DNA of 32,000 nucleotides from Ignicoccus pacificus DSM 13166 (GTDB lineage: Archaea; Thermoproteota; Thermoprotei_A; Sulfolobales; Ignicoccaceae). The translations under genes and the position numbers were made by a program. Below, in pieces: positions 1 through 25,146 of the stretch. The stretch is from assembly GCA_025340205.1 (NCBI GenBank), contig CP006868.1, positions 480,001 to 512,000 on the forward strand, read 5' to 3'. Every line of letters starts with the position of its first letter. Positions within the stretch are counted from its first letter, which is position 1. Under the pieces are notes generated by a model that saw only the letters and a list, made by a program, of their open reading frames with translations, was not told where the DNA came from and searched no databases.

Positions 1-453
1 TAGGTCGAGCACTAGGACGTTGAACTCTTTGACGTCCTCATTCGAGTGCCTCTTGTTGTAGGAGACCCAAGCTCTGAGCCTCTCATTGAGCTCGAAGTCA
101 TTATCTTTCAGCTCCTCGAGCTTCACTATCCCAAGTGCCACGTAGGTCTCAGCGTTACCCAAGGCCTCAAGGAAGTCTCTATCCTCCAAGAGCTTTAGCA
201 GATCACCCTTCCGCTCGAAGGCTAACGTTAGCGAGCCCCTCTCCTCCTTCTGCCAAATGATAACAGGCTTGTCCTCGTTCCCCGTTATCAGCCTCAAGTG
301 TTCAACGATCTCGCTGGTCCTAACCTTGGGTTCTTCCCTAGTAGCCCGCTCGAGGGCTTCCTTGAGCCCCTTTGTCCAAACGTTAACTTTTTCAGGACCA
401 TTGGACCCTTCGTTATCGGGTAGCTGCGAGGGGGAGGTGACTACGGCCGTCAT
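1..453 (-). CDS. Hypothetical protein, partial (C-terminus lies beyond the window start)
   Basis: ATG at 453-451 overlaps the TGA of the upstream ORF (ATGA). The frame stays open down to position 1 (151 codons, MTAVVTSPSQLPDNEG...LKDNDFELNERLRAWV...). It is absent from the ORF track because no stop lies in the window. Confidence 0.45.
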   Translation of the reverse strand, partial: MTAVVTSPSQLPDNEGSNGPEKVNVWTKGLKEALERATREEPKVRTSEIVEHLRLITGNEDKPVIIWQKEERGSLTLAFERKGDLLKLLEDRDFLEALGNAETYVALGIVKLEELKDNDFELNERLRAWVSYNKRHSNEDVKEFNVLVLDL

Positions 454-656
454 TGGTCCACCACCTCCTCTCCCTCCTTCAAGCTTCCGCACATCGCCTC
501 GTACAACAGGAGAGCCCTCGTCACGACCTCGTTGTCCGCATGGCCGTGGAAGACGTAACCTTCGCACATCTCCCTCGCCATCTCCTCTGCTTCCTTCCTG
601 AGCTCGGAACCAAGGTCCTTGAGGACTTCCTCGATACGTTGCTCGATCTCCTTCAT
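450..656 (-). CDS. Hypothetical small protein (68 aa)
   Basis: K/E-rich helical composition. ATGA overlaps at both ends link it to neighbouring ORFs. The plus-strand ORFs across it are S/L/P-rich and look like antisense artefacts. Confidence 0.45.
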   Translation of the reverse strand: MKEIEQRIEEVLKDLGSELRKEAEEMAREMCEGYVFHGHADNEVVTRALLLYEAMCGSLKEGEEVVDQ

Positions 657-979
657 TGCTTACACCTCCTCACAGCTCTCTTTAAGGCCTCCTTGGTGAG
701 CGGAGTTTGAGGAAGCTCCTCGCCTTTGCAGATCCTTTCTACGAGCCTCTCGATCTCTAGCTCGTTCACCACCACTTCGGGCTCATAGCCCAAGCGCTTC
801 AACTCCTTGTCGACGAGCCTCTCGAGAGTCTCCCTGAGGCTTTGGTCGTAAACCGTTGCGAGGAAGCAGAGCTTAGCGTGGAGCCCCTCGCTCGCTGGCA
901 GAGTCTTAGGCTTTCCATTTATTACCTGGTACTTTGCCACAGTGGTGGCCGCGAGGTCGCGGAGCGCGGCTTTTCTCAC
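653..979 (-). CDS. Hypothetical protein (108 aa)
   Basis: GTG start overlaps the upstream stop (GTGA at 976-979), and its stop overlaps the downstream ATG. No motif recognised. Confidence 0.5.
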   Translation of the reverse strand: MRKAALRDLAATTVAKYQVINGKPKTLPASEGLHAKLCFLATVYDQSLRETLERLVDKELKRLGYEPEVVVNELEIERLVERICKGEELPQTPLTKEALKRAVRRCKQ

Positions 980-1440
980 TGCGCCTCACCCCCAACCCTC
1001 TTGATTATCTCTTCTGCCTCCTTCAGCATCTTACACTTACTGAGCTTCTCGAGTAGGGCCTTGAGCTCGTCCTCGTGCTTCCTCATTATCTCCAGCAAGG
1101 CCTTAGTTATCGCCACGTTCGGTAGTCTGTGCTCTTTCCTCAGCTCGATTACCGCCTCTGCGAAGTCTCTCGCCACCTTGAGCTTGGTGAATTCCTTCTC
1201 TTCAAAAAAGCTCGAGAACTTCTCGCAGCTTTCTTGTTTTCCGGTCTTCACAGTTCCACCCGTATCTACCTGGGGTACCAGTGGTTGCTCATGGTGAGTC
1301 GAATCTTGCATCTCATTTCCCCTCACCCAACGTAGGGTACCTAGTCCGTTGCGCACGCTCCCTCCCGTATCCCCCAAGGGTACCAACCGCTCTGCCATGG
1401 TTACTCCCTCACCCTTACCGAGGGTACCATTGCTCACCAC
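976..1440 (-). CDS. Hypothetical protein (154 aa) with an internal LVPxxDTGGxVxxG peptide repeat
   Basis: GTG at 1440 overlaps the upstream ORF by 7 nt; an alternative ATG lies at 1398. The N-terminal ~75 codons coincide with the GGGTACC-core DNA repeats. The C-terminal half is K/E-rich and helical. Confidence 0.4.
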   Translation of the reverse strand: MVSNGTLGKGEGVTMAERLVPLGDTGGSVRNGLGTLRWVRGNEMQDSTHHEQPLVPQVDTGGTVKTGKQESCEKFSSFFEEKEFTKLKVARDFAEAVIELRKEHRLPNVAITKALLEIMRKHEDELKALLEKLSKCKMLKEAEEIIKRVGGEAQ

Positions 1441-1759
1441 TTCATCCTCGCCAAGCGACTATCCCACTTGTACACTTCTTTCGCCCTCAGCTTCTTGCAG
1501 AATCTGATGTCCTCGATGGTCTTCCTGAACTCCTCCTCGTGCCTCTTCAGGACGTAGTAAGCGGCCATAGTTACTGTGTGGTTCGTCGTGTTCAGCTCCT
1601 TCCTTAGCCTCAGCACCAGCAAGGCGAACCAGCTTGAAACGGTGAGCCTCGACTTGATTTCGAGCAAGTGGTCCTCCTCTTCGATGTCCTTGCACCTAGG
1701 GTGCTTCTGCCACTCGTACTCCTCCACAAGCATCCCCGCCCAGAGCTGGGGTACCAGTG
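1270..1759. repeat. Cluster of five GGGTACC-core repeats, including an exact 14-nt direct repeat CTGGGGTACCAGTG (1270-1283 and 1746-1759)
   Basis: GGTACC occurs at 1274, 1336, 1379, 1423 and 1750. Copies 1 and 3 share the extended form CCCGTATC-N4/5-GGGTACCA. Confidence 0.6.
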
Positions 1760-1787
1760 CGCTAGCGGTGAAACGGAGTAGTCGCAT
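1434..1787 (-). CDS. Hypothetical protein (117 aa), first gene of the overlapped operon
   Basis: ATG at 1787-1785 and protein-like composition. No motif recognised. Confidence 0.5.
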   Translation of the reverse strand: MRLLRFTASALVPQLWAGMLVEEYEWQKHPRCKDIEEEDHLLEIKSRLTVSSWFALLVLRLRKELNTTNHTVTMAAYYVLKRHEEEFRKTIEDIRFCKKLRAKEVYKWDSRLARMKW

Positions 1788-1930
1788 TTTGATGGCGAGT
1801 ACTGGGACGAAAGGTCTGCCTAGCAGAGAAATTGGTTAGACCTTCGAAGGAAGCGGGCATAACGGTGAAACGGAAAGCTTCAGCTGGGAGCTCGCTTGAG
1901 TAAGAGGAGGAAAAGGAACTCGAGGGGGAC

Positions 1931-1987
1931 TAGGACGCCGGCCTGCCACGCCGGAGATCCCGGGTTCAAATCCCGGCCGCCGCACCA
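1931..1987 (+). tRNA. Truncated tRNA-Gly(GCC): 3' portion only (att-like fragment), not a functional gene
   Basis: Sequence is TAGGAC-G-CCGGC/CTGCCAC/GCCGG-AGATC-CCGGG/TTCAAAT/CCCGG-CCGCCGC-A-CCA. The anticodon arm, T arm, 3' acceptor strand and CCA are all intact. The complementary 5' acceptor strand GCGGCGG and the D-arm 5' half are absent from the upstream 140 nt. Confidence 0.75.
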
Positions 1988-1993
1988 TTCTTC

Positions 1994-2464
1994 CTAATTA
2001 TCCCGAGATCCTCCGTCGTGACAACCAAGCATCGCTAAGAGGTCATTACCCTCACTAAGCACATAGAAAGAACGGATCTTGGCACGCTTAGCATTAATTG
2101 CTTGAACTTTGTCACTAGTTACCAACACAGCATCCATAACCTTCGCCACTCCCAAGTAGTATGAATCTGCACCCCTCGAACCAGTGCTCAACGCTAGCTC
2201 TACAGCATCTTCGTAAAATATATCGTCGGGGACTGTTATAACCGATTCCTTTAATATAGAAATTACTGAAGCCACTCTTTCTGGTGGTATAAACCTAACC
2301 AAGACCCCAGCAACTTCTACAAGGAGAAGCCTAGGAGCGAGCAACTTAATTCCTTTCTTTTGAAAGCATTCGAATAAGGCTTCGGTCACTCTAACCCTTT
2401 CCTTGTTTCTTCCCGCAAACAAGTCGATAACTACTGACGCGTCGAGAACTACCTTATCGATCAC
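1994..2464 (-). CDS. vapC: PIN-domain ribonuclease toxin (VapC family)
   Basis: N-terminal VVLDASVVID, and later acidic positions (LLLVEVAG, GADSYYL, LVTSDKV) spaced as in PIN domains. 4-nt overlap with the upstream antitoxin gene. Confidence 0.85.
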   Translation of the reverse strand: MIDKVVLDASVVIDLFAGRNKERVRVTEALFECFQKKGIKLLAPRLLLVEVAGVLVRFIPPERVASVISILKESVITVPDDIFYEDAVELALSTGSRGADSYYLGVAKVMDAVLVTSDKVQAINAKRAKIRSFYVLSEGNDLLAMLGCHDGGSRDN

Positions 2465-2664
2465 GTCTCGAACCTCTTCCTCTCTTCACTCAGAATTTCG
2501 GAGGGTTCGCGATCTGATCGAACGAGTGCGCGCACACGTCTTGCCACTTCTACGAGATCCTCTTGTACAAGTAACGTCACTACCTCACCATCTCTTAAAT
2601 CAATGTCTTCAAGGGGTACTAGTCTTCCCCCTTTAACTACAGCTTTGATTAGCCTCTTCCTCAT
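2461..2664 (-). CDS. vapB: VapB-type antitoxin, AF2212/DUF104-like (67 aa)
   Basis: N-terminal IKAVVKGGRLVPLEDIDLRDGEVVTLLV matches the small beta-domain antitoxins paired with archaeal PIN toxins. Overlaps vapC. Confidence 0.7.
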   Translation of the reverse strand: MRKRLIKAVVKGGRLVPLEDIDLRDGEVVTLLVQEDLVEVARRVRALVRSDREPSEILSEERKRFET

Positions 2665-2740
2665 GGTTTCTCAGCAATACTTCCTATGTTCGTCGAATTT
2701 TAAACCAACTAGAAGTCCCAAGATGATGACCTTCCAAGTA

Positions 2741-2772
2741 GGCGATCCCGATTCAAAATCCCGGCTACACCA
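2741..2772 (+). repeat. Degenerate tRNA 3'-end-like remnant (T-arm/acceptor/CCA-like)
   Basis: GGCGATCCCGATTCAAAATCCCGGCTACACCA aligns with GGAGATCCCGGGTTCAAATCCCGGCCGCCGCACCA of the 1931-1987 fragment. It shares GATCCCG, TTCAAA, TCCCGGC and ACCA, but the stems no longer pair. Confidence 0.35.
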
Positions 2773-3504
2773 ATTGCCTTCTCTTAACTCCTTCCACGAT
2801 CCTCACTTAGAGACACACCATGTTTCACTAACTGGACATTCGAGAACAGGAAGCTATAGAGGTTCTCCTTTCAAACACACCTTGAGTCGCACGGAACATA
2901 TCAGCGAAGTGCAACTGAAGTTAATAAACAAACGTGATGCTTGGGCCTAAGTGGAGCTAATCCGTTCGGCCTCTCGAACGTTTTACGCGAAAGAACTTCT
3001 CGAAGGTACTTAGGATAAGATCGAAGAGCGTTGTAAATACTGCCTTGGAATCAAGAGAGGAAGGACGAGTGCTTTATGAATCTTCACGAGCAATGAAACG
3101 TTTGAGATTTTGACGAGGTTACCCTTTAGCTTCTCTAGACATTACGTGAGTAAGAAAGTCCAAGGTGCCGGAAACACTAGAACCCTCGAAACTTCGCAAG
3201 TCAGGATTGCTAGTAAGCAACTTCGAAAGCACGTTAATCTTGGAAGCGAGAAGAGCTAAAGTAGTGATAGCTAAGGATTATGGAATAAGCATAGAAGACG
3301 TTGAGGCAGTATTATTATTGAGTATCTAAAGTCGAGGAGGAAGTGCTTGAAGCTATTGCTAGGTGAAAAGACAAAGATTTGATTGAAGTTTAAGCGTCTT
3401 GAATTACTGACATTCTTAAAACAAAGGTAGTATAAGAATTGTAATTGTTTTCTCAGAGACGTATCTTATCGTAGCTGTGCGTCTCGGAAACATTTAATAT
3501 TTTC

Positions 3505-3522
3505 TATAAAGGAACCTTTATA
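3505..3522. promoter_or_regulatory. Perfect palindrome TATAAAGG-AA-CCTTTATA overlapping the TATA region of the 3547 gene
   Basis: 8-bp inverted repeat with a 2-nt spacer, 25-42 nt upstream of the GTG at 3547. Confidence 0.45.
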
Positions 3523-3546
3523 ACAAAAAGAGAAAATGTAGAATAT

Positions 3547-4719
3547 GTGGTGAAAACACCAATGGCACTATCTGAAAAGTTAAACGGCCTATTCACATTA
3601 GTGATGTTAATAGCTATAGTAATAACCTTAGCAATGACAACAGTTGTACATTATTTAGATATCGAGTCCTCTATTGCCACAAATCTAGTGTTAATCGTTA
3701 TAGCTGTCGCAGTGTTGAGCGGTCTAGGCGCTATCATTACAGATCTCTTTGCAATAAAAATGCCTTCAATTGAAGTCGGAAACCTAGAGACCGCGACTTT
3801 TCATACAAGTTCATCAGAAGATAGAAGCGAAAAAGAAGCTATTCTCACTAGTAAGAGATCGGAGTACGAAAGTTTTCGTTCAAGCACTCAAAAGAGTGAG
3901 AACAGGAAAGAGGAGAGCAAGCGTGAGACTGTTCTTCAAGTAACCTCATTAGAAGAACTAATGGTCCTACTAAAGCATCTCAAGGAAATCCATAGAGATG
4001 CGGATAGGACTGATGCGATAATATCTCCGTGGATATTCGCATGGCCCTTCATGTTCCTCGGATTTGCTCTTCTGATAGCTCTTTTGACAGCTGCCTCGGC
4101 AAGCGTCTCTCCTTATCCAAGCGAAGTCGGTGCTATCGGCTTCGCCAGTATCGTAATTTTCATAGGTGCAGCTCTCGTAGTTGCCGTGGGTATCGCCGTA
4201 TATCTTCCCTATAAGCTCATTAAGAGAAGGAACGAACACTTCGGAAGGACGCTTAAGTTCTATCGTACCCTCTTAGATCTACTAAAACACATGAAGGTAG
4301 ATAGTGGCATTGTAAATAGAATCGAGGTCACAGTTATCGACATGGAACAAGAGAGTCAACCAAGGAATCCCTTCCTTTGGATACTTCTAGAATATTTATT
4401 CGCACCAGTAACCTTTTACGTCTACCACTTCCTCAACAAGGATTTCTATAAACACGAACAGAGGGAAATAGAGATTTATAGGAACTTAAGAATAGCGTTG
4501 AGCGAAGTAGGCATATCAATACCTCAGATGAACCCAACCATACCGAGCAGAAGTACGATACTTTATATCATAGCTACCTTGCTCACCGGTGGAGTCTTCG
4601 GTCTCTATTGGCTCTATACCTTGATAAAGGATCCAAATGAACATTTTAAACAACACAGATACGTGGAGTCTGAGCTCATTGCTGCAATAGAACGAGCGCT
4701 AAGAAGTGCTAAGACATAG
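3547..4719 (+). CDS. Polytopic membrane protein with a Ser/Glu/Lys-rich linker and repeated TM-hairpin + LIKxxNEHF modules (DUF4234-like, tentative)
   Basis: Two N-terminal TM helices, then an acidic/Ser-rich ~80-aa linker, then further TM segments. The motif YKLIKRRNEHF is repeated as YTLIKDPNEHF, with a weaker copy FLNKDFYKHEQ. GVFGLYWLY resembles DUF4234. G+C is low. Confidence 0.7.
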   Translation: MVKTPMALSEKLNGLFTLVMLIAIVITLAMTTVVHYLDIESSIATNLVLIVIAVAVLSGLGAIITDLFAIKMPSIEVGNLETATFHTSSSEDRSEKEAILTSKRSEYESFRSSTQKSENRKEESKRETVLQVTSLEELMVLLKHLKEIHRDADRTDAIISPWIFAWPFMFLGFALLIALLTAASASVSPYPSEVGAIGFASIVIFIGAALVVAVGIAVYLPYKLIKRRNEHFGRTLKFYRTLLDLLKHMKVDSGIVNRIEVTVIDMEQESQPRNPFLWILLEYLFAPVTFYVYHFLNKDFYKHEQREIEIYRNLRIALSEVGISIPQMNPTIPSRSTILYIIATLLTGGVFGLYWLYTLIKDPNEHFKQHRYVESELIAAIERALRSAKT

Positions 4720-4755
4720 CTTTTCTATAAAGTATAATTACATTTTATTAAAATA

Positions 4756-5532
4756 TTAAAAAGAAGGTTTAATTAGATTCAAAGCGTCCTTCCATACTTT
4801 GTCACACTCTACTTTTCTACTCAAGAACTCCGAAAGGTTCACACCCTTTTCCTCCAGAGCTCTGCCTATGAACTTCTTCGGTATAGCAGTTGAGTCTATC
4901 GGTTCTTGATCGCTATAATGCTTGCCTCTAAAGAGTAAAGCGGCAGCGCTATCCGCAACGCTTACGAAGCCAGCTAGAACGAATGCTTCTCTCTTGAGTC
5001 TCGAAGCTATGAGCGTTTCAGCTAAATCTAGTACCTTGTTCTTGACCTCATTTGCCATAACTTCCTTTCCTTCGGTCTCTTTCAAACTCGGAAAGAGCTC
5101 GGCTAGTCTCGAGGAAGCAATTCCCTTAATCTTAAATACTCCTATATTCCGTGCTTCCATATCGAAAGCGTCTCTCATAGCATGATGATGCATAGCTACA
5201 GCGTAAATCGTCGGTCCTAGGAGGTCTTCTGGAATGCCTAGGGAGAGTAAGTCGTCCTTCAACCACTTGTAGGTCATGTAGGCTGAAAGAGCTTCGTGGA
5301 ACGGAAAGGTACTCTTTCCTCCTCTATCTCTCCTTATTCCTACTTTCCCTATGTCATGCAGGATTGCAACTAGATAGGCTGCCTTCTCGATTCCCTTTAC
5401 CTTTCTTGAAAGGGCTCTTAACTCCTTTTCGAACAACTCGTTCATCATAAGAACTATAAGGGCACTGTGACAGTAGAGGGGTTCCTCAACGCTTCTTGAT
5501 CTATCGTAGAAGGAGAGAGGTTCTTTACACAA
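4756..5532 (-). CDS. Stand-alone HD-domain nuclease of the Cas3''/Cas3-HD type
   Basis: The ordered motifs are LYCHSAL, ILHDIGK, FPFHEALS, AMHHHAM and VSVADSAAA. These follow the five-motif H / HDxGK / H / HH / ADxxxS pattern of Cas3 HD domains. No helicase, Cascade, cas1/2 genes or CRISPR array is in the window. Confidence 0.65.
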   Translation of the reverse strand: MCKEPLSFYDRSRSVEEPLYCHSALIVLMMNELFEKELRALSRKVKGIEKAAYLVAILHDIGKVGIRRDRGGKSTFPFHEALSAYMTYKWLKDDLLSLGIPEDLLGPTIYAVAMHHHAMRDAFDMEARNIGVFKIKGIASSRLAELFPSLKETEGKEVMANEVKNKVLDLAETLIASRLKREAFVLAGFVSVADSAAALLFRGKHYSDQEPIDSTAIPKKFIGRALEEKGVNLSEFLSRKVECDKVWKDALNLIKPSF

Positions 5533-5667
5533 ACCCTATCCCCCTTGTATAAGAATGAGGTGCGTGAATCTCGAAACCCAAAAGATCATGTTGTTCTTCC
5601 TTTACATGACACGTAAAGAGTATTCGCTGTATTGTATGTCAGTGTTAAAATGTCTTTGTAAGCACTA

Positions 5668-5686
5668 CTTTATGATTATCATAAAG
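5668..5686. promoter_or_regulatory. Perfect 19-bp palindrome CTTTATGAT-T-ATCATAAAG in the divergent HD / DUF1152 intergenic region
   Basis: 9-bp inverted repeat centred about 21 nt upstream of the TTG start at 5698. It overlaps the only TATA-like sequence for that gene. Confidence 0.45.
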
Positions 5687-5697
5687 CTTCTCTATAC

Positions 5698-6636
5698 TTG
5701 GTGCTTCCTCTAGTGATCATAGGTGGTATAGGAGGAGGCGGAGACATAGGGTTAGCATTAGTCCTCAAGGATTATCTCAACCTCATTCCAGCTTCAGTTC
5801 TCAGCTTCCTTAACTGCCCCTCCAAGAAGCTACCAGTTCCAGGAAAGAAAGCTTACAAAGGTCTTTGGATTCCCTCAGTCGAACATCCTAGGCTCTTCGA
5901 GGCAAAACTGAATGTGATGGAGCCAAACCTCAGTGTCTTTGCCATATGTACTCGCGAACATTGGAACGTTGTGAAGAGAGGATTGGATTACTTCATGAAG
6001 TTATTCGATCCTAAGATAACGCTCCACACTGACTTGGGAGGGGATGCGATAGTTCTCGGGTATGAAAGTAACTTCGGTAGTTACAAAACTGATGCATTGG
6101 GAAGAGCTGCTCTCCATTACTTAAGTACGGAGTACGGCGTTAGAGTTTATCTAGCTGTAGGAAACGTTGGAGCAGAAGCTTGGAAGCTTCACGAGCTCGT
6201 CGCTATATTGAAGTACTTAAAAGAGGAGGGTGTCTTCGTTGGCTCAATACTTCCATCAAAAGAATCTCTTGTTAAGGCAAAGCTCCTTGCCTCCCTCGGC
6301 TGCTCGGGAATGCTTCCGCTGTACCTCAACGCCGTTGAGGGAAAGAAAGTGGTAGAGGAGAGGCTCTGCTACTTGAAGCCTCCGATAAAGATCAAACCGT
6401 GGTACAAGTACTCCCTAATCTTCGATCTTAAGGAACTCTGCGAGCTCTCTCCCCTTTGCATGAAGGCCAGAAGGGAGTGGATAGGAGGTCTAAAAGGATG
6501 GAAATCTCTAGAACCTCCAGCGAAATTGAAAGAGCTTTTGAAATATTACGAGGATATGGGAGAAACTGATATAGAAAATGAAATCTTAAAAATAATTGAG
6601 AGTGAGGCACTAAGTACTTCAATATTTGAGGATTGA
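5698..6636 (+). CDS. DUF1152-like protein of unknown function
   Basis: N-terminal IIGGIGGGGDIG and a second HTDLGGDAIV motif, as I remember for the archaeal DUF1152 family. The assignment is from memory and is not verified. Confidence 0.55.
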   Translation: MVLPLVIIGGIGGGGDIGLALVLKDYLNLIPASVLSFLNCPSKKLPVPGKKAYKGLWIPSVEHPRLFEAKLNVMEPNLSVFAICTREHWNVVKRGLDYFMKLFDPKITLHTDLGGDAIVLGYESNFGSYKTDALGRAALHYLSTEYGVRVYLAVGNVGAEAWKLHELVAILKYLKEEGVFVGSILPSKESLVKAKLLASLGCSGMLPLYLNAVEGKKVVEERLCYLKPPIKIKPWYKYSLIFDLKELCELSPLCMKARREWIGGLKGWKSLEPPAKLKELLKYYEDMGETDIENEILKIIESEALSTSIFED

Positions 6637-6697: not shown

Positions 6698-8152
6698 ATG
6701 TACAGAGTGAGGCTAGCGGAGCGAGCGGAGTTCTTGAGAAAGCTGAGGGAGGAGAGCATAGACACTCCCGACTACGAGGTAATAGATTCGCCCAAGCCCG
6801 AGCTGTACAAGTTCATCTTCCCCTTCAAGAGCGCTCCTAGGATATTCTTCGATGGAATAATACTACCAGTAGAGGTGCCCAAGGAGATATGGATAACCGA
6901 CACTACCTTCAGAGACGGCCAGCAAGCCAGGGAGCCCTACACGGTGGAGCAAATAGTTACGCTCTACAAGTTCCTCCACAGGCTCGGTGGAGAGAACTGC
7001 AGAATCCTGACCAGCGAGTTCTTCCTATATACCGAAAAGGACAGGGAGGCCGTCAGGAGGGTCAAGGCCCTAGGCTACAGATGTCCCAAAGTAACCGCTT
7101 GGATAAGGGCGAACAAGGAGGAGCTTAGGCTAGTCAAGGAGGCTGGAATAGAGGAGACCGGAATACTCTCGTCCATAAGCGACTACCACATCTACTACAA
7201 GTTCAGGAGCAGCAGGAGGAAGGTCGTGGAGAAGTACTTGAGCGTGGTAGAAGAGGCACTGAAGATGGGAATAGTACCAAGGGTGCACTTGGAGGACATA
7301 ACGAGGGCTAACATATTCGAGGTAGTAGTGCCTTTCGTGAAGAAGTTGATGAAGCTCAGCGAGAAGTATGGGTTACCGGTAAAGGTGAGGTATCCCGACA
7401 CCTTGGGAGTGGGAGTTCCCATACCGGAGGCCATGCTTCCGAGGAGCATTCCAAAGCTCACTTGGGTTCTGAGGCACGTAGCCGGGGTTCCCAGCGAGTG
7501 GTTGGAGTTCCACGGTCACAACGACTTCCACTTGGGAGTTGCCAACGCCACCAGCGCTTGGCTCTACGGGGCTTCTCTAAACAATGGAACGCTCCTAGGA
7601 ATAGGGGAGAGGGCCGGAAACGTTCCCATAGAGGCCTTGGTCTTCATGTATGCTCAGATCAAGCACTCCTTTGACGGAATGAACCCCAAGGTGATAACCG
7701 AGATAGCGAAGTACTACAGAGACGAGCTGGGCTACGAGGTGCCTCCATACTATCCGATCGTGGGAAGAAACTTCGCCACCACTAGGGCTGGAATACATGC
7801 AGACGGCCTCCTCAAGAATCCCGAGACCTACTTGCCCTTCGACACCGAGGGAATCCTAGGAGTGAAGCCCGGAATAGCGATAACCCCTTACGCCGGCTTG
7901 GCCGGAATAGCCTACTGGATAAACAAGACGTTTGACCTAAAGGGCGATGAAGTAATAAACAAGAAGGATCCAAGGGTGCAGAAGATCTACGAAGATGTGA
8001 TGAAGCAGTTCGAGCATGGCAGGCTTACTGCCTTGAGCGACGCCGAGATGCTAAACTTAGTAGCGAAGCACATGCCGGAGCTCGTGGAGAAGTACTGGGA
8101 TAGGTTGCCAGAGGACCTGAGGATAAAGTTCTTGGAAGCGAAGAAGAAGTAG
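6698..8152 (+). CDS. HMGL-like (DRE-TIM) Claisen-condensing enzyme of the LeuA/CimA/NifV/Re-citrate synthase family
   Basis: WITDTTFRDGQQA near residue 65 and HGHNDFHLGVANATSA are the metal-binding motifs of 2-isopropylmalate/homocitrate synthase-type enzymes. There is a ~60-aa N-terminal extension. Confidence 0.85.
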   Translation: MYRVRLAERAEFLRKLREESIDTPDYEVIDSPKPELYKFIFPFKSAPRIFFDGIILPVEVPKEIWITDTTFRDGQQAREPYTVEQIVTLYKFLHRLGGENCRILTSEFFLYTEKDREAVRRVKALGYRCPKVTAWIRANKEELRLVKEAGIEETGILSSISDYHIYYKFRSSRRKVVEKYLSVVEEALKMGIVPRVHLEDITRANIFEVVVPFVKKLMKLSEKYGLPVKVRYPDTLGVGVPIPEAMLPRSIPKLTWVLRHVAGVPSEWLEFHGHNDFHLGVANATSAWLYGASLNNGTLLGIGERAGNVPIEALVFMYAQIKHSFDGMNPKVITEIAKYYRDELGYEVPPYYPIVGRNFATTRAGIHADGLLKNPETYLPFDTEGILGVKPGIAITPYAGLAGIAYWINKTFDLKGDEVINKKDPRVQKIYEDVMKQFEHGRLTALSDAEMLNLVAKHMPELVEKYWDRLPEDLRIKFLEAKKK

Positions 8153-8157
8153 CTCTT

Positions 8158-8400
8158 TTACGATGTAAGTTCCTCGTGACGCGTTCTCTGGGTCTCATAC
8201 ATGCTCTTAAATACCAAGACGTTGCCGACCTTTTCAAACCTTGATTCAAATAAAGTCTTGGAGAGCTTCATGAGCTTTATTAGATCCTCCTCTCTCCTCC
8301 TCTTTCCGCCATGCCTTGTTCTTTCCGGAAAGGTAACGATGACCGGCTTCTTTACCCACCTTCTCTTCAGCTCTTCTATCTTGATAACCTTCTGAGCCAT
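8158..8400 (-). CDS. Small basic protein (80 aa) overlapping the 3' end of the nucleotidyltransferase gene
   Basis: ORF with an HGGKRRREED basic patch and a 25-nt overlap with the upstream gene. No motif recognised. Confidence 0.4.
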   Translation of the reverse strand: MAQKVIKIEELKRRWVKKPVIVTFPERTRHGGKRRREEDLIKLMKLSKTLFESRFEKVGNVLVFKSMYETQRTRHEELTS

Positions 8401-8963
8401 CTTCTCACTTCTTCCAGCTTATCTTCAACTAGTTCCTTTTTAGCTAACCTCTCAAGTATTTCCCAATCAAGATGATCTGACCACGCGTAAGCGAGCATCA
8501 GAGCCTTATCCCTATCCTCGGTGCTGTTCCAATACTTCCAAGCTGCTAGGTACCTTACTAACAACCTTTCGGGACGCTCTACATAGAGCTTCCCGCAAGG
8601 CGTCTCTATAATTAGACATTCCTCTACTTCAGAAGGAAGTAAGTCTATTGCCTTGAGTAAGCCTTGAAATATCCACTCCCTTCCTCCTCTTTCCGCTATC
8701 TCATTAAGTGCTTCTTCCAATAAGTCTGCAACACTCGGATTGTCCAGTTTTACATCTATGTCAGCAGTCCTGTAAGACGCTCCAGTATAAAGTTCCACTG
8801 CAAACCCTCCAGTTACTTGTAGCCTTGTTCCTAACTTCTCTAAGACCTCATTGAGACAAGCCAAGAAGCACGCGACTCTTTCGGTTTCATCACTAAAATC
8901 TTTGGACTTTCTCAGACATTCTGATATTGCGTATCTTAATAGTTCTTTCATTTTCTTATCCAA
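8376..8963 (-). CDS. Pol-beta-superfamily nucleotidyltransferase-fold protein (DUF2204/DUF6036/AbiEii-like, tentative)
   Basis: VTGGFAVELYTGASYRTADIDV fits the hG[GS]-x9-13-Dh[DE]h signature. The C-terminal half is helical. Confidence 0.6.
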   Translation of the reverse strand: MDKKMKELLRYAISECLRKSKDFSDETERVACFLACLNEVLEKLGTRLQVTGGFAVELYTGASYRTADIDVKLDNPSVADLLEEALNEIAERGGREWIFQGLLKAIDLLPSEVEECLIIETPCGKLYVERPERLLVRYLAAWKYWNSTEDRDKALMLAYAWSDHLDWEILERLAKKELVEDKLEEVRRWLRRLSR

Positions 8964-9260
8964 ATTTGTTATCCCTATTAGGAATTCTACCAGTTAGAGT
9001 TAATCCCTAAGTCTCATTTTGAATCCCATTTCATCACAAAGACTAAGAGACTTAAGATGAAAATGTAGTTGCAATAAAACTCGGTACTTTGGACACCTAT
9101 GTAAAGTATTAATAGAGAAAGAGAATGAAACCGATATACTCCTAGAAATATCAAGGCTTTCTGAGAGATGCTGTAAGATAGGAAGCGAGGGTAGAAGGAC
9201 CGTTTAGCTTGGAGAGCTTCATTAGGAAGCGAATATCCGATCCTCACTCTTAGTATTTTT

Positions 9261-9497
9261 CTATGATATCTTGAAAGATATTAATGCGCTCATTATATAT
9301 GATATCATACTTACTATTGCATTTATGTCAATCAAATTTCTTGGTTTAAAGTGCTGGAGATAACTATCGTGTAAGAATTGAGCAATTTCATATGATCTAG
9401 TATCGTCGCTTAATTTGGACTCCAATATACATTCTGAAAGTTCGACGACTACCGCGTTCTTAATGTCCAAAAGGTGTTTTTGATGTTTTGTACCCAA
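9261..9497 (-). CDS. Hypothetical small protein (78 aa) in the AT-rich island
   Basis: ORF only; the composition is plausible for a protein. No motif. Confidence 0.3.
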   Translation of the reverse strand: MGTKHQKHLLDIKNAVVVELSECILESKLSDDTRSYEIAQFLHDSYLQHFKPRNLIDINAIVSMISYIMSALISFKIS

Positions 9498-9516
9498 GCT
9501 CGAGAGCTACCTAGGA

Positions 9517-9750
9517 GTGAGGCCTTATTGGAGAGCTATTGTGCACTCCGCAATAGCTTCGATCCTTAGTGTTTATCGAGAACGCTTCAAGCTAAACAAC
9601 TTAGAAATCACTTTTTCACTTGCTATGCTGCTTGAGTGTAATGAAGAGGTTGCTGAGAAGTTCGTTGAGTTGCTTATGGAGTTCCAGAGGAGGAAGAGTG
9701 AGGGTAAGAGGAACGAGTTGTTGAGGGTAAGTGGAGTGCTCAAGGGATAG
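9517..9750 (+). CDS. Hypothetical small protein (77 aa) in the AT-rich island
   Basis: ORF only, with a helical K/E-rich C-terminus. No motif. Confidence 0.3.
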   Translation: MRPYWRAIVHSAIASILSVYRERFKLNNLEITFSLAMLLECNEEVAEKFVELLMEFQRRKSEGKRNELLRVSGVLKG

Positions 9751-9799
9751 TTTCGATGAGCTCTGCTTTTTGATTATCTCGAAGGAGCTAGAGGACATT

Positions 9800-9875
9800 G
9801 GCGGGCGGGGGTGATGAGAAGTCCCTCGGGAGATGGGTGATCGACGGATGACACTCTGATCCCGACCCGCCCGCC
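9800..9875 (+). ncRNA. Candidate C/D-box sRNA (2'-O-methylation guide) closed by a 10-bp G+C clamp
   Basis: Layout: GGCGGGCGGG-G, C box GTGATGA (9811-9817), 12 nt, GAGA (D'-like), TGG, GTGATCG (C'-like), 12 nt, D box CTGA (9856-9859), TCCCGA-CCCGCCCGCC. It is a G+C-rich islet in an AT-rich intergenic region. Confidence 0.5.
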
Positions 9876-9910
9876 TTCGTGAGAAGGAAGGGAAAGAGGG
9901 TTAATTAACT

Positions 9911-10189
9911 TCAGATCTTCCTACATCCAGCTAAACATTGTTGGTATTCTTTAGTGCAGTTGGAAGTACACTCGTTATAACAAGCGTGATAGCGTGTGTT
10001 ATCGACGAAGAAGATTATACTGTGCTTCTCGGCGCAGTAGCTTCTACACTCTTCTTTACATATCTTGAACCTTTCCTCGCACTTGTTTATGCAAGCAGCA
10101 ACCACAGCGTCTCCAGCTACTATTCCGAACTTTTCCTCCGGCACCTTTCTTTCCCTCGCTAATAACCTTTCTTTCCCGAGCGTATACAC
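9911..10189 (-). CDS. Small cysteine-rich protein (92 aa, 10 Cys in CX3C arrays)
   Basis: Cys at residues 33, 37, 44, 48, 52 and 70, 74, 78, 85, 89. The spacings are 3,6,3,3 and then the mirror 3,3,6,3. Confidence 0.5.
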   Translation of the reverse strand: MYTLGKERLLARERKVPEEKFGIVAGDAVVAACINKCEERFKICKEECRSYCAEKHSIIFFVDNTRYHACYNECTSNCTKEYQQCLAGCRKI

Positions 10190-10316
10190 TTAGTAATTTG
10201 AATTTGTACGAAGGAACGCATCGAGGTGTCTGCATTAACCTGAGCAGTGCTATACGCTTTCACTCTCACGTCGCACCTACGCAACCAAAAGGATAATTGA
10301 TTTCAGTGTAAATTTC

Positions 10317-10538
10317 TCAACGTAACTTCTTCATTAATTCCCATGATAAACTATACACATATATTAGAGACCACTTTTCCAAGGGACTAGAAATAAGTTC
10401 AAAAACATACAACAAGTACAATGAAAGATCATAGGCATCATAGATTCGATATTCTATGGTTCGGTTAGAAACCGAAGGACTGACAAACACATGGGTTGTA
10501 CTCTTGCTTTTATCAAGCGCCTTCGCTAGCTCTTCCAC
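10317..10538 (-). pseudogene. Possible N-terminally truncated remnant of a winged-helix regulator gene
   Basis: VEELAKALDKSKSTTHVFV resembles the recognition-helix region LTEIAKALNTSKSVVWKHV of the 10858-11202 regulator. A stop lies just upstream in frame, and the rest of the ORF is aromatic-rich and low-complexity. Confidence 0.3.
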
Positions 10539-10752
10539 CGTGAAACGTTCGAGAGCTTAACGGACTAGCTTGACCCTACCCCAGTCCTCAGGCTCCTTAG
10601 CGAACCTCAGTACATGGAGTTGATATGGTTCGTGCGACTGACGGAGGGTTCGAGAAAGGAACCTCCAGGGCTTCCTGAGGTCTGGACTGTGTGGAGTGAA
10701 CGTCTATAGAAGTCGGAGGAGTTGATTGAGGATGCGTTAGGACCCGGTAAGG

Positions 10753-10829
10753 TGGAGCCGCCGCCGGGGTTCGAACCCGGGACCTCCGCCTTACCAGGGC
10801 GGCGCTCTGCCAGGCTGAGCTACGGCGGC
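10753..10829 (-). tRNA. tRNA-Thr (anticodon GGU), CCA encoded
   Basis: The reverse complement folds as GCCGCCG-TA-GCTC-AGCCTGGCA-GAGC-G-CCGCC-CTGGTAA-GGCGG-AGGTC-CCGGG-TTCGAAC-CCCGG-CGGCGGC-T-CCA. All four stems are Watson-Crick paired. Confidence 0.95.
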
Positions 10830-23590: not shown

Positions 23591-24508
23591 GTGGGCAGAG
23601 GGACAAAGACGTACTCATTCGGAGTCGGTAAAAGAGAAGCCCACGATTCCTCGCCGTTCTATTCAAGGAAGATGTATCAGAACTTGAAGTTCCCTAAACC
23701 TTCAAAGGAGGACTTGATCGAAAATCCTCTTCCTGAGAAGTTCTTGGATAAGATAATCCTCGGGGATGCTAGAGAGGTGCTGAGAGAGGTTCCAGACAAG
23801 TCGATTCACCTAATGGTCACCTCTCCTCCGTACAACGTGGGAAAGGAATACGATCAAGATCTGACCTTAGGAGAATACTTGGACTTCATCGAAGAGGTAA
23901 TGAGAGAGGTTTACAGAACCTTAGTATGGGGCGGGAGGGTTTGCTTCAACGTAGCTGATTTGGGAAGAAAGCCCTTCATTCCCTTGCACGCATACCTAAT
24001 CGAGAGGTTTGAGAAAATAGGATTCTTGATGAGGGGAATAATAATTTGGGATAAGGGAGATGCGGTAGCTGCTTCCTCGACCGCTTGGGGCACTTGGATG
24101 AGCCCGGTCAACCCTACGCTAAGGGATCAGCACGAGTACATAATAGTGCTGAGCAAGGGCGATTTCAAGAGGCCGAAGCCCAGCGACCCGGAGAAAGTAC
24201 CTACTATATCCAAGGAAGAGTTCGTGGAGTTCACCAAGAGCATATGGAGGTTCAAGCCAGAGAGCGCGAGAAGGGTAGGTCACCCTGCTCCGTTTCCAGA
24301 GGAGCTACCTTATCGTTGTATTCAACTCTACACGTTCAAGAAGGACGTAGTCTTAGATCCCTTCGTCGGAAGCGGTACAACTTGTGTCGTAGCTAAGAAG
24401 ACTGGGAGGCACTTCTTGGGTATAGATATAAATGAGGAGTACGTGGAGCTCTCCAAGAGAAGGGTAGAGAGGTGGCTAAAGCAAAGAAGCCTCGCTCAGT
24501 TCATCTAG
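23591..24508 (+). CDS. Beta-class N4/N6 DNA methyltransferase (SPPY type, likely m4C)
   Basis: Motif IV TSPPYNVGKEY precedes motif I LDPFVGSGTT, which is the beta-class order. Confidence 0.9.
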   Translation: MGRGTKTYSFGVGKREAHDSSPFYSRKMYQNLKFPKPSKEDLIENPLPEKFLDKIILGDAREVLREVPDKSIHLMVTSPPYNVGKEYDQDLTLGEYLDFIEEVMREVYRTLVWGGRVCFNVADLGRKPFIPLHAYLIERFEKIGFLMRGIIIWDKGDAVAASSTAWGTWMSPVNPTLRDQHEYIIVLSKGDFKRPKPSDPEKVPTISKEEFVEFTKSIWRFKPESARRVGHPAPFPEELPYRCIQLYTFKKDVVLDPFVGSGTTCVVAKKTGRHFLGIDINEEYVELSKRRVERWLKQRSLAQFI

Positions 24509-24510
24509 GC

Positions 24511-25146
24511 TTACAGCATTTCCCTTAATTTAATTAGATCTTTAAAATCCGTTGCTAACAGCACCGCGTCCACAAGCCCCGATCTTAGCGATATATCCAT
24601 GATGCACTTTGAGTTCCCCGATTCGGGTTTATGACTAGTTATTATCACATACTTGATATTTCCTTTTATTCCAAACTTCAACTGTACCGCATTAGCCAAT
24701 GCTTTTTTCATCGTGTCCGTTCTAATGAGTCCGGGCCTTGACAGTTCCACTACCTTCCCCTTACACGAGTATTGGTGTGCGGAACCCTTTGCCTCAATGA
24801 CCATTTTCAGGGCGCCTTCTTTCAGTACTGCAAAATCGGCCGCGCCCACTCCTACCATGCATGCCTCCGGTATCTCATATTCTCGGATGAGTTCAATGTT
24901 CTCAATATCTTGGAGAACGAACTTGCGGAGCACGTACTCTAGGAAGTCCTCAAAGGCTTCGCCGAACACCTTTGCCCTCTTTTGAAAGTCTGCTTTGACG
25001 TCGCAAAGTTTATTATACATCAAATATTTCTCAAACGTTTTCTCCAAAGCTATTTTGAGTAGAGTTGGGGATGACTCTAATCTCTTCAGATCTATCGAGA
25101 GTTCATCAAACACGCTATCTACTAATTCCAGCTTGTTTTCCTTCAA
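24511..25146 (-). CDS. Putative type II restriction endonuclease (PD-(D/E)xK)
   Basis: GAADFAVLKEGALKMVIEAKGS gives a D...ExK core. It is convergent with the methyltransferase, with a 2-nt gap between stops. G+C is lower than in the methylase gene. TTAAATA lies about 37 nt upstream of the start. Confidence 0.6.
   Translation of the reverse strand: MKENKLELVDSVFDELSIDLKRLESSPTLLKIALEKTFEKYLMYNKLCDVKADFQKRAKVFGEAFEDFLEYVLRKFVLQDIENIELIREYEIPEACMVGVGAADFAVLKEGALKMVIEAKGSAHQYSCKGKVVELSRPGLIRTDTMKKALANAVQLKFGIKGNIKYVIITSHKPESGNSKCIMDISLRSGLVDAVLLATDFKDLIKLREML

What the first reader, a model, noticed from the sequence alone, without database searches (positions are those of the whole stretch)
3500..6636. 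Low-G+C three-gene island: repeat-containing membrane protein, orphan Cas3''-type HD nuclease and DUF1152-like protein
By eye, G+C drops clearly across this block compared with the flanking core gene at 6698. It contains three genes.
1. A 390-aa membrane protein with an internal duplication: TM hairpins each followed by (Y)xLIKxxNEHF, plus a Ser/Glu/Lys-rich linker.
2. A 258-aa protein with the full ordered Cas3 HD motif set (H, HDIGK, H, HHH, ADS). It has no Cas3 helicase, Cascade, cas1/cas2 or CRISPR array anywhere in 32 kb.
3. A protein with two GGD-type glycine-rich motifs (GGGGD, DLGGD) that I associate with the uncharacterised DUF1152 family. It is transcribed divergently from the HD gene.
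The island sits beside a TA module and att remnants, the usual neighbourhood of defence genes. A stand-alone Cas3-type nuclease teamed with a membrane protein and a putative nucleotide-binding protein does not correspond to any described system that I know.
Basis: partly seen in the sequence, partly recalled or inferred. Interest (0 to 1): 0.7.

Follow-up and report, generated by a model that had tools for sequence, protein, structure and literature searches.

The report
Solo cas3'' gene beside unrelated neighbours
The block holds a real but stranded CRISPR nuclease gene (type I-A Cas3'') in Ignicoccus pacificus, sitting between a membrane-protein gene and a gene of unknown function that are never its neighbours in other genomes, so it is an orphan cas gene in a variable, low-G+C stretch of chromosome and not a new three-gene defence system.

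Summary
Three ORFs (3547-4719 +, 4756-5532 -, 5698-6636 +) lie in a low-G+C tract of Ignicoccus pacificus DSM 13166, with GC3 of 0.42-0.47 against 0.62 +/- 0.07 for other genes. The motifs, the VapBC pair and the tRNA-fragment remnants are all present, and no other cas gene or CRISPR array occurs in 32 kb.

The interpretation as a new system does not hold. The HD protein is a true Cas3'' of the type I-A kind. All six relatives with readable context directly follow a cas3' helicase gene, in Csa5-Cas7-x-x-Cas3'-Cas3'' operons wherever the contig extends far enough, and one of them is in the sister species I. islandicus. Its best PDB matches by profile and by fold are Cas3'' proteins. None of 21 DUF1152 loci has an HD neighbour. 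None of 80 loci of the membrane-protein family has an HD or DUF1152 neighbour; their usual partner is a SpoIIM-like gene. None of the HD loci has a relative of either neighbour gene.

The three genes form three separate transcription units. Best reading: a solo cas3'' with intact catalytic residues, acquired horizontally or left over from a lost type I-A module, beside two unrelated genes. I could not determine whether I. pacificus encodes Cascade/Cas3' elsewhere. Interest is low.

The parts
4756..5532 (-). Solo cas3'' gene (IPA_02800), encoding a 258-aa type I-A-like Cas3 HD nuclease with an intact HD motif set
   Evidence: Pfam Cas3_HD above cutoff and PADLOC Cas3/Cas3a2 at about 1e-14. H22, H59, D60, K63, H79, H115, H116 and D194 are invariant. 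PDB profile hits are 8wth, 3s4l and 7r2k_Q/7tr8_Q. The top five Foldseek hits are all Cas3 HD. All six relatives with readable context directly follow cas3'.
3547..4719 (+). Membrane-protein gene, 390 aa, with a DUF4234-like tandem module. It is convergent with cas3''.
   Evidence: ORF. DUF4234 scores 24.3 bits, just under its 25.3 cutoff. Hydrophobic segments and two Y.LIK..NEHF motifs. 183 metagenomic relatives were found and 80 loci fetched.
3547..3960 (+). N-terminal extension of the membrane protein: two hydrophobic segments plus an E/S/T/K-rich linker. Relatives lack it, and an in-frame ATG lies at 3961.
   Evidence: Relatives align only to about residues 130-385. Internal Met139 is at window position 3961. 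G+C is 0.39 here against 0.43 for the rest of the gene. A TATA-like TTTATAA about 25 nt upstream of the GTG at 3547 is read from the sequence.
3961..4719 (+). Conserved core of the membrane protein (about 245 aa), the part shared with the widespread family
   Evidence: 40% identity over the full length of the 243-aa L002 protein. 80 loci show 31-47% identity in their best aligned segment.
5698..6636 (+). DUF1152-family gene (IPA_02805), 312 aa, with a Rossmann-like alpha/beta fold and GGGGD and DxGGD motifs. It is divergent from cas3''.
   Evidence: Pfam DUF1152 37.3 bits, above the 27-bit cutoff. Relatives at 33-51% identity. Model pLDDT 91. No convincing PDB fold match, TM <= 0.39. No conserved neighbour.
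5533..5697 (.). AT-rich divergent intergenic region between cas3'' and the DUF1152 gene. Each gene presumably has its own promoter here.
   Evidence: Sequence read directly. The promoter assignment is an inference and was not tested.
1994..2664 (-). VapBC-like toxin-antitoxin pair (PIN toxin at 1994-2464, AF2212-like antitoxin at 2461-2664). It lies in the same low-G+C tract.
   Evidence: Pfam PIN 36.9 bits and AF2212-like 28.9 bits. GC3 0.42 and 0.41.
1936..1987 (+). 3'-half fragment of a tRNA ending in CCA, likely an att remnant
   Evidence: Rfam tRNA match at 29.6 bits, just above its 29-bit gathering score. 79% complementary to the 3' half of tRNA-Thr at 10753-10804. No matching 5' acceptor strand is visible upstream.
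2730..2765 (+). Second, degenerate direct copy of the tRNA T-arm/acceptor fragment. With 1942-1977 it brackets the VapBC pair.
   Evidence: Direct repeat family D2, 75% identity.
6698..8152 (+). HMGL-like (homocitrate / isopropylmalate synthase family) gene with core-type composition. It marks the right edge of this low-G+C block.
   Evidence: Pfam HMGL-like at 2.9e-35. GC3 0.71.

Best explanation
The block is not one system. It is a patch of accessory, low-G+C DNA in the Ignicoccus pacificus chromosome that carries three unrelated, separately transcribed genes.

(1) The middle gene is a solo cas3''. It encodes the stand-alone HD nuclease subunit that in type I-A CRISPR-Cas systems is made from the same operon as the Cas3' helicase and built into the Cascade complex. 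There it cuts single-stranded DNA using divalent metal ions once the crRNA has found its target. In this window the gene is separated from cas3', from Cascade genes and from any array. Its catalytic residues are intact, and it is no more divergent than the operon-embedded copy of I. islandicus. The most likely history is that it arrived by horizontal transfer as a fragment of a type I-A effector module, or was left behind when the rest of such a module was lost. On its own it has no means of targeting. So it is either inert or a spare part that works only if a Cascade/Cas3' is encoded elsewhere in the genome.

(2) The membrane protein belongs to a widespread DUF4234-like family whose usual neighbour is a SpoIIM-like membrane protein. 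Here it carries an extra N-terminal extension.

(3) The DUF1152 protein is a Rossmann-like protein of unknown function with no conserved gene partner.

Shown: the family assignments, the lack of co-occurrence and the composition. Inferred: the horizontal origin and the present functional state of the nuclease.
For: - Source organism and gene identities: IPA_02800; IPA_02805.
- Cas3'' membership: Pfam, NCBIfam and PADLOC hits; invariant catalytic residues; PDB profile hits to Cas3'' proteins at 5e-20 to 1e-11, against 2e-8 for the best non-Cas3 HD domain, a poly A polymerase; a model with pLDDT 86.5 whose top five Foldseek hits are all Cas3 HD.
- Context of relatives: P0008 in a Csa5-Cas7-x-x-Cas3'-Cas3'' operon; P0009 in the same operon in I. 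islandicus CP006867; P0002 and P0010 preceded by Cas3' C-termini; P0011 in a complete type I-A locus with Cas4, Cas2, Cas1, Csa1 and Cas6; P0014 preceded by Cas3'.
- No cas relics or arrays in the window.
- No co-occurrence in 21 DUF1152 loci, 80 membrane-protein loci and the HD loci.
- The membrane family's recurrent neighbour is a SpoIIM-family gene, in 36 of 80 loci.
- DUF1152 genes have no conserved neighbour.
- GC3 is 2-3 SD below the window's other genes, a property shared with the adjacent TA genes. tRNA-fragment remnants lie nearby.
- The I. pacificus copy is only 30% identical to the I. islandicus Cas3'', so it is not a vertical orthologue, and its branch is not unusually long.
- Type I-A Cas3' and Cas3'' are integral Cascade subunits, and nuclease activity needs the HD residues (PMC4005679).
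Against: - The catalytic residues are fully intact and the ORF is uninterrupted, which a long-dead remnant would not be expected to keep.
- I could not inspect the rest of the I. pacificus genome. A Cascade/Cas3' partner elsewhere, or just outside the window, remains possible.
- The search with I. islandicus Cas3' found no I. pacificus protein. It also missed I. hospitalis, which is reported to have type I-A (PMC12195208), so that negative result is weak.
- L002 has a DUF1152 gene and a membrane-protein homologue within 7 kb. That hints at a loose linkage of those two genes which I cannot fully dismiss.
- Low G+C alone does not prove horizontal transfer.
Confidence: 0.75

Rival explanations
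1. Displaced but working subunit. I. pacificus encodes a type I-A (or other type I) Cascade and Cas3' helicase elsewhere in its 1.69-Mb chromosome, and this cas3'' supplies, or backs up, the HD nuclease in trans. This agrees with the best explanation on what the gene is and differs only on its present function.
For: - The catalytic motif set is intact and the C-terminal extension is shared with operon-embedded relatives.
- The branch length is no longer than that of the functional-looking I. islandicus copy.
- The related species I. islandicus has type I-A, and I. hospitalis is reported to have it (PMC12195208).
- In T. tenax, a Cas7 from a distant cas cluster was pulled down with Cascade, so mixing of subunits in trans has a precedent (PMC4005679).
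Against: - No I. pacificus hit appears among 116 Cas3' relatives, although this negative is weak.
- In all six relatives examined, cas3'' directly follows cas3', overlapping it in five. That suggests tight co-expression is the rule.
- The gene is only 30% identical to the I. islandicus copy and has foreign-looking GC3.
Confidence: 0.3
2. One reading: the membrane protein, the stand-alone Cas3''-type nuclease and the DUF1152 protein together form a new, CRISPR-independent defence system.
For: - The three genes are adjacent in a low-G+C tract next to a TA module and att remnants.
- The nuclease has an intact active site.
- No PADLOC model matches the membrane or DUF1152 proteins, so they are not part of a known system.
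Against: - No co-occurrence of HD with either partner in 21 + 80 loci of the partner families or in the HD loci.
- The HD family is otherwise embedded in type I-A operons.
- The three genes have convergent and divergent orientation, so they do not form an operon.
- The membrane family's conserved partner is SpoIIM-like.
- DUF1152 genes have no conserved partner, and in L004 two of them flank a pyruvate:ferredoxin oxidoreductase gene cluster.
- No relatives were found on viral contigs, phages or plasmids.
Confidence: 0.03
3. Co-opted solo nuclease. The cas3'' gene is kept under selection for a role outside CRISPR, such as DNA repair, degradation of foreign DNA without a guide, or a toxin-like role. 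It acts alone and is unrelated to its neighbours.
For: - The ORF and active site are intact despite the apparent loss of partners.
- Nuclease domains of Cas3 enzymes show guide-independent endo- and exonucleolytic ssDNA cleavage (earlier work cited in PMC4005679).
Against: - Only one such solo copy is known. The family has just 22 members at E <= 1e-3 among 1.8 billion representative proteins, and every relative checked lies in a cas operon.
- With no population of solo copies, there is nothing to show selection on the solo state.
Confidence: 0.1

Closest known systems
Type I-A Cas3'' (stand-alone Cas3 HD nuclease; Pfam PF18019, TIGR01596; e.g. M. jannaschii MJ0384 / PDB 3s4l, the P. furiosus Cas3-HD subunit in PDB 7tr8/7r2k, T. 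tenax Cas3'')
   Same: It has the same size class (about 240-260 aa), the same ordered HD motif set and the same fold. Its nearest relatives, including the I. islandicus protein, are the last gene of Csa5-Cas7-x-x-Cas3'-Cas3'' operons.
   Different: In this window it is monocistronic, with no cas3', Cascade, adaptation genes or array within 32 kb. It is very divergent, at most 38% identical to anything in 1.8 billion representative proteins. It scores just under the TIGR01596 cutoff.
DUF1152 (Pfam PF06626), an uncharacterised archaeal protein family
   Same: It scores above the Pfam gathering threshold and shares the invariant GGGGD and DxGGD motifs with relatives from Desulfurococcales/Acidilobaceae MAGs.
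   Different: Nothing distinguishes it from its family apart from its chance position next to cas3''. The family has no solved structural homologue and does not occur in the searchable literature library.
DUF4234-like (Pfam PF14018) two-hairpin membrane proteins that pair with SpoIIM-family genes
   Same: The C-terminal 245 aa align end to end with a 243-aa DUF4234 protein in L002 (40% identity) and with 80 metagenomic relatives. The YK.IKRRNEHF, YHFLNKDF.KHE and KDPNEHF motifs are conserved.
   Different: It has an extra roughly 140-aa N-terminal extension (two hydrophobic segments plus a charged linker) that relatives lack. No SpoIIM-like gene lies convergent downstream of it; that position is taken by cas3''. 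The Pfam score is marginally below the cutoff.
Orphan cas genes outside complete CRISPR-Cas loci
   Same: It is a single cas gene without the rest of its module, in a variable region next to TA genes and integration scars.
   Different: The one paper found that uses the term 'orphan cas3' concerns mycobacteria (PMC10333696; not read). I found no description of a solo type I-A cas3'' in a crenarchaeon, and I did not search exhaustively.

Membership tests
Cas3'' HD nuclease (PF18019 / TIGR01596) | Ordered HD-superfamily metal-binding motifs of the Cas3 type (H ... HD ... H ... HH ... D) | tested here: met
   H22, H59, D60, H79, H115, H116 and D194 are invariant in the 15-sequence alignment A1. 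H22, H59 and D60 appear to correspond, by motif position, to T. tenax H19, H55 and D56, whose mutation impairs the nuclease (PMC4005679).
Cas3'' HD nuclease (PF18019 / TIGR01596) | Profile score above the curated threshold | tested here: inconclusive
   Pfam Cas3_HD scores 30.8 bits, above its 23.1 cutoff. TIGR01596 scores 41.6 bits, below its 43.45 cutoff. PADLOC Cas3/Cas3a2 give 1.3e-14 and 2.2e-14.
Cas3'' HD nuclease (PF18019 / TIGR01596) | Fold of solved Cas3 HD domains, closer than to housekeeping HD enzymes | tested here: met
   The profile search against the PDB gives 8wth 5e-20, 3s4l 4e-17 and 7r2k_Q 2e-15, against 2e-8 for the best non-Cas3 HD domain, a poly A polymerase. Foldseek ranks 3s4l (TM 0.62, prob 1.00), 7tr8_Q, 4qqy, 7r2k_Q and 7tra_Q on top, while SAMHD1 and dNTPase score prob <= 0.12.
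Cas3'' HD nuclease (PF18019 / TIGR01596) | Metal-dependent ssDNA nuclease activity | not testable with these tools
   This needs a biochemical assay.
Type I-A CRISPR-Cas system (as a locus) | cas3'' adjacent to cas3' helicase and Cascade genes (csa5, cas7, cas5, cas8a) | tested here: not met
   tblastn of three type I-A gene sets (from L007, L008 and L108) against the window hits only cas3''. The only helicase in the window, at 25240-27009, is XPD-like (DEAD_2 / Helicase_C_2).
Type I-A CRISPR-Cas system (as a locus) | CRISPR array and adaptation genes (cas1, cas2, cas4) | tested here: not met
   The window has no tandem array, no repeated 20-mer and no Cas1, Cas2, Cas4, Csa1 or Cas6 hit. The rest of the genome could not be examined.
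DUF1152 (PF06626) | Profile score above the gathering threshold and the family's glycine-rich motifs | tested here: met
   37.3 bits, above the 27-bit cutoff. G12-G15, D16, D112, G114, G115 and D116 are invariant among relatives.
DUF4234 (PF14018) | Profile score above the gathering threshold | tested here: inconclusive
   24.3 bits, below the 25.3 cutoff, covering residues 335-371 only. However, its 40%-identical L002 homologue is recorded as a DUF4234 protein.
Multi-gene defence system (any, known or new) | Conserved co-occurrence of the component genes across unrelated genomes | tested here: not met
   0 of 21 DUF1152 loci and 0 of 80 membrane-protein loci have an HD neighbour. None of the 5 HD loci scanned has either partner, and neither partner is listed among the called genes of the 2 HD loci fetched later. 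One locus (L002) has DUF1152 and the membrane homologue 6.3 kb apart.
Multi-gene defence system (any, known or new) | Match of the partner proteins to known defence-system models | tested here: not met
   PADLOC returns no family for the membrane protein or the DUF1152 protein.
VapBC toxin-antitoxin (neighbouring module) | PIN-domain toxin gene preceded by a small overlapping antitoxin gene | tested here: met
   PIN scores 36.9 bits at 1994-2464 and AF2212-like scores 28.9 bits at 2461-2664, with a 4-nt overlap.

The most novel reading that the evidence does not exclude
The solo Cas3'' has been kept intact because it was co-opted as a guide-independent nuclease with a role outside CRISPR. It could act alone or be loosely coupled to the neighbouring membrane or DUF1152 proteins. 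That would be a first example of a type I-A Cas3'' working without Cas3' and Cascade.
Probability: 0.07. Interest if true: 0.5.

Novelty: new member of a known kind. Interest (0 to 1): 0.15.

Why it matters
It matters little beyond annotation. The result shows that an apparent new defence trio is a chance neighbourhood. The HD protein should be named Cas3'' (type I-A-like, solo) and not treated as the core of a new system. Two small points may interest specialists. First, the Ignicoccus-type Cas3'' clade is very sparsely sampled: only 22 proteins at E <= 1e-3 among 1.8 billion representatives. Second, I. pacificus keeps an intact, highly divergent solo copy, which could serve as a natural test of whether a type I-A HD subunit can survive, or act, without its helicase and Cascade. 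The census also gives the first context information for two families of unknown function: the DUF4234-like membrane family pairs with SpoIIM-like genes, and DUF1152 has no conserved partner.

Tried and rejected
- **Looking up the I. pacificus genome by exact protein.** This failed twice because the genome is not in that index. I could not walk beyond the window or list its cas genes.
- **Using the I. islandicus Cas3' to find an I. pacificus Cas3'.** There was no hit, but I. hospitalis was also missed, so the result is inconclusive.
- **Literature.** I found nothing on DUF1152, on accession CP006868, or on CRISPR-Cas in I. pacificus.
- **Relics of neighbouring cas genes in the window.** None were found.
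- **Decay hypothesis from branch length.** The orphan is no more divergent than the operon-embedded I. islandicus copy, so branch length gives no support for decay.
- **Function of DUF1152 from structure.** The model is confident, but PDB matches are only generic Rossmann-like folds with TM of about 0.2-0.4. No functional call could be made.
- **Mobile-element origin.** The HD and membrane profiles found no relatives on viral contigs. The HD protein found none in phage or plasmid records, and the DUF1152 protein found none in plasmid records.
- **Synteny between the window and L002 beyond the two shared genes.** None at E < 1e-6.
- It contained a disallowed sequence and was not counted.
- **CRISPR array after the I. 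islandicus operon.** TRF found none in L008 10500-12600.

Full report
**Source and observation.** The window comes from Ignicoccus pacificus DSM 13166. The HD protein is identical to IPA_02800 and the DUF1152-like protein to IPA_02805, both on a 1,685,057-bp contig. The first two are convergent, 36 bp apart. The last two are divergent, 165 bp apart. They therefore form three transcription units and not an operon.

**Composition.** Windowed G+C falls to 0.36-0.46 across about 3000-6600, against roughly 0.50-0.55 elsewhere. At the codon level, GC3 of the three genes is 0.42, 0.46 and 0.47, against 0.62 +/- 0.07 for the window's other genes longer than 200 aa. The HMGL-like gene at 6698 has 0.71. 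The low-G+C character is real but not specific to the trio. The VapBC pair at 1994-2664 (0.42/0.41) and a DUF6036 nucleotidyltransferase gene at 8376-8963 (0.40) share it. The region from about 1.9 to 10.7 kb is thus a mosaic of accessory genes interrupted by one core-type gene.

**att remnants.** These are real too. A tRNA 3' half ending in CCA lies at 1936-1987 (Rfam 29.6 bits; 79% complementary to the 3' half of tRNA-Thr at 10753-10829). A second, degenerate copy lies at 2730-2765. Together the two copies bracket the VapBC pair.

**The HD protein is a Cas3''.**
- Family models: Pfam Cas3_HD scores 30.8 bits (cutoff 23.1). TIGR01596 scores 41.6 bits, just below its 43.45 cutoff. PADLOC Cas3/Cas3a2 models give about 1e-14.
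- Rarity: an exhaustive HMMER search of 1.84 billion representative proteins found only 22 proteins at E <= 1e-3. Nearly all are 190-315 aa stand-alone HD proteins, and the best is 38% identical over the matched stretch.
- Motifs: in an alignment of 15 of them, H22, H59, D60, G62, K63, H79, E80, S83, H115, H116 and D194 are invariant. The closest clade also shares a C-terminal extension (D-S-x-x-x-P-x-K-F ... L-x-E-[RK]-G).
- Solved structures: a profile of this alignment hits PDB Cas3'' proteins best: 8wth at 5e-20, M. jannaschii MJ0384 (3s4l) at 4e-17, and the Cas3-HD subunit of type I-A Cascade complexes (7r2k_Q, 7tr8_Q) at 2e-15 to 1e-11. The best non-Cas3 HD domain, a poly A polymerase, scores 2e-8.
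- Fold: an AlphaFold model (pLDDT 86.5) has Cas3 HD structures as its top five Foldseek matches (3s4l with TM 0.62 and prob 1.00, then 7tr8_Q, 4qqy, 7r2k_Q and 7tra_Q). SAMHD1 and dNTPase-type HD enzymes score at noise level.

**Where its relatives live.** Every relative whose context I could read directly follows a cas3' helicase gene, overlapping it in five of the six.
- P0008: a Csa5-Cas7(DevR)-x-x-Cas3'-Cas3'' operon in a MAG.
- P0009: the same operon in the sister species I. islandicus, CP006867.
- P0002 and P0010: on short contigs, where the upstream ORFs match Cas3' C-termini at 1e-19 and 6e-8.
- P0011: a complete type I-A locus that also has Csa3, Cas4, Cas2, Cas1, Csa1 and Cas6.
- P0014: the upstream gene matches Cas3' at 2e-47.

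The family is therefore the type I-A Cas3''. Experimental work on Thermoproteus tenax shows that type I-A Cas3' and Cas3'' are co-transcribed with Cascade genes and are integral parts of the complex. It also shows that ssDNA cleavage depends on Mn2+/Mg2+ and on the HD residues H19, H55 and D56 (PMC4005679). By motif position these correspond to H22, H59 and D60 here.

**The I. pacificus copy is solo within the window.** tblastn with all genes of three type I-A loci (L007, L008, L108) against the window finds only cas3'' itself. There is no tandem array and no repeated 20-mer. The only helicase in the window is XPD-like. The remainder of the window is housekeeping: adenylosuccinate lyase, OMP decarboxylase, TrpA, an ABC-class ATPase, a DNA methylase, TatD, an HpaB-like enzyme and an STT3-like protein.

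**The rest of the genome could not be seen.** The exact-protein index does not hold it. A search with I. islandicus Cas3' returned 116 relatives, none from a 1,685,057-bp contig. It also returned none from I. hospitalis, which is reported to have types I-A and III-B (PMC12195208). That negative is therefore weak.

**State of the gene.** The solo copy is about 32% identical to its clade, the same as the operon-embedded I. islandicus protein. Branch length gives no sign of decay. At 30% identity to the I. islandicus copy it is not a vertical orthologue, which fits the foreign GC3.

**Do the three genes co-occur elsewhere? No.**
- I collected 21 loci with DUF1152 relatives: L001-L005 by exact-protein look-up and L011-L026 from a scan of 185,579 species genomes.
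- I collected 80 loci with relatives of the membrane protein from metagenomes, 552 kb in total, 25 of them at least 10 kb long.
- HMM searches of all stop-to-stop ORFs found no Cas3''-HD relative in any DUF1152 or membrane-protein locus, and no DUF1152 relative in any membrane-protein locus. The five HD loci then in hand held neither a DUF1152 nor a membrane-protein relative. The called genes of the two HD loci fetched later list neither.
- The single partial exception is L002, where a DUF1152 gene and a 243-aa homologue of the membrane protein (40% identity, E = 2e-47) lie 6.3 kb apart with eight genes between them. Nothing else in L002 is syntenic with the window.
- Neighbour clustering shows that the membrane family's recurrent partner is a convergent downstream SpoIIM-family membrane protein, in 36 of 80 loci.
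- DUF1152 genes have no conserved neighbour; the largest cluster covers 3 of 19 loci. In L004 two DUF1152 paralogues flank a pyruvate:ferredoxin oxidoreductase gene cluster.
- Neither partner protein matches any PADLOC defence model.
- No relatives were found on viral contigs, phages or plasmids.

**The two neighbour proteins.**
- Membrane protein: the conserved core is residues about 140-385. It has hydrophobic hairpins followed by YKLIKRRNEHF (222) and YTLIKDPNEHF (357), plus a conserved YHFLNKDFxKHE element. The first 138 residues (two hydrophobic segments and an E/S/T/K-rich linker) have no counterpart in relatives, and an in-frame ATG lies at 3961. However, a TATA-like TTTATAA lies about 25 nt upstream of the GTG at 3547, so the long form is plausible (inference).
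- DUF1152 protein: it gives a confident model (pLDDT 91) of alternating strands and helices. The best PDB matches are generic Rossmann-like folds with TM of 0.2-0.4. Its function stays unknown. The invariant GGGGD and DxGGD loops suggest phosphate or nucleotide binding, but that is conjecture.

**Conclusion.** The proposal of a new three-gene system is not supported. The best-supported account is a solo, catalytically intact type I-A cas3'' in a horizontally shaped, low-G+C variable tract, flanked by two unrelated genes. Whether it is a stranded remnant or a subunit serving a Cascade encoded elsewhere depends on a whole-genome cas inventory that I could not run. The finding is a new (solo, divergent) member of a known kind, and its interest is low.

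Noticed in passing
window 1936-1987 and 2730-2765 (with the VapBC pair at 1994-2664 between them): Two direct copies of a tRNA 3'-half fragment bracket the VapBC pair. The first ends in CCA and has an anticodon-arm-like stem with a GCC-containing loop. The second is 75% identical. They look like attL/attR scars of a small integrated element that carried the TA module.
   Followed up: partly
window 1-1800 (- strand ORFs at 653-979, 976-1440 and 1434-1787): Three overlapping ORFs with no Pfam match and unusually high GC3 (0.65-0.81) abut the tRNA fragment. This may be the edge of another integrated element with a composition different from the low-G+C tract.
   Followed up: no
L002 10001-10951 and 17238-17969: A DUF1152 gene and a close homologue of the window's membrane protein lie 6.3 kb apart on a 239-kb metagenomic scaffold. 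This is the only other place where any two of the three families come near each other. It is the only such case among the 21 DUF1152 and 80 membrane-protein loci, so it is probably chance or distant residual synteny.
   Followed up: partly
L027-L106 (e.g. L061 1214-1990): In 36 of 80 loci the DUF4234-like membrane-protein gene is followed by a convergent SpoIIM-family (PF01944) membrane-protein gene. I know of no published description of this conserved pairing of two families of unknown function.
   Followed up: partly
L004 4036-5073 and 8364-9329; L020 3922-5061 and 8045-8872: Two DUF1152 paralogues lie in one locus. In L004 they flank a pyruvate:ferredoxin oxidoreductase (POR) gene cluster, which hints at a metabolic and not a defence context for this family.
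   Followed up: no
L001 8509-9901 and L017 729-1160: The closest DUF1152 homologue (51% identity) also sits next to TA modules (HEPN/NTase and PIN/RHH), as in the window. DUF1152 genes may tend to lie in variable regions without being functionally tied to them.
   Followed up: no
window 8158-8963: A low-G+C DUF6036-type nucleotidyltransferase gene (8376-8963, GC3 0.40) overlaps a small 80-aa ORF (8158-8400). This may be another TA-like or MNT-type pair just past the core HMGL-like gene.
   Followed up: no
window 9000-10540: This is a second low-G+C patch (0.37-0.46) of small unannotated ORFs next to tRNA-Thr (10753-10829). It includes a Cys-rich 92-aa ORF at 9911-10189 that contains a 22-nt tandem duplication (10143-10186). 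It may be another integration remnant.
   Followed up: no
window 23591-25146: An N6/N4 DNA methylase gene (23591-24508) is followed by a convergent, lower-G+C 211-aa ORF with no Pfam match (24511-25146, GC3 0.51). It could be the restriction partner of an R-M pair.
   Followed up: no
L008 4191-4376 and 10789-12480 (I. islandicus CP006867): The I. islandicus type I-A operon is preceded by a 61-aa RAMP fragment. It is followed by about 1.7 kb holding only tiny ORFs, and TRF finds no CRISPR array there. The array for this module must lie elsewhere.
   Followed up: partly
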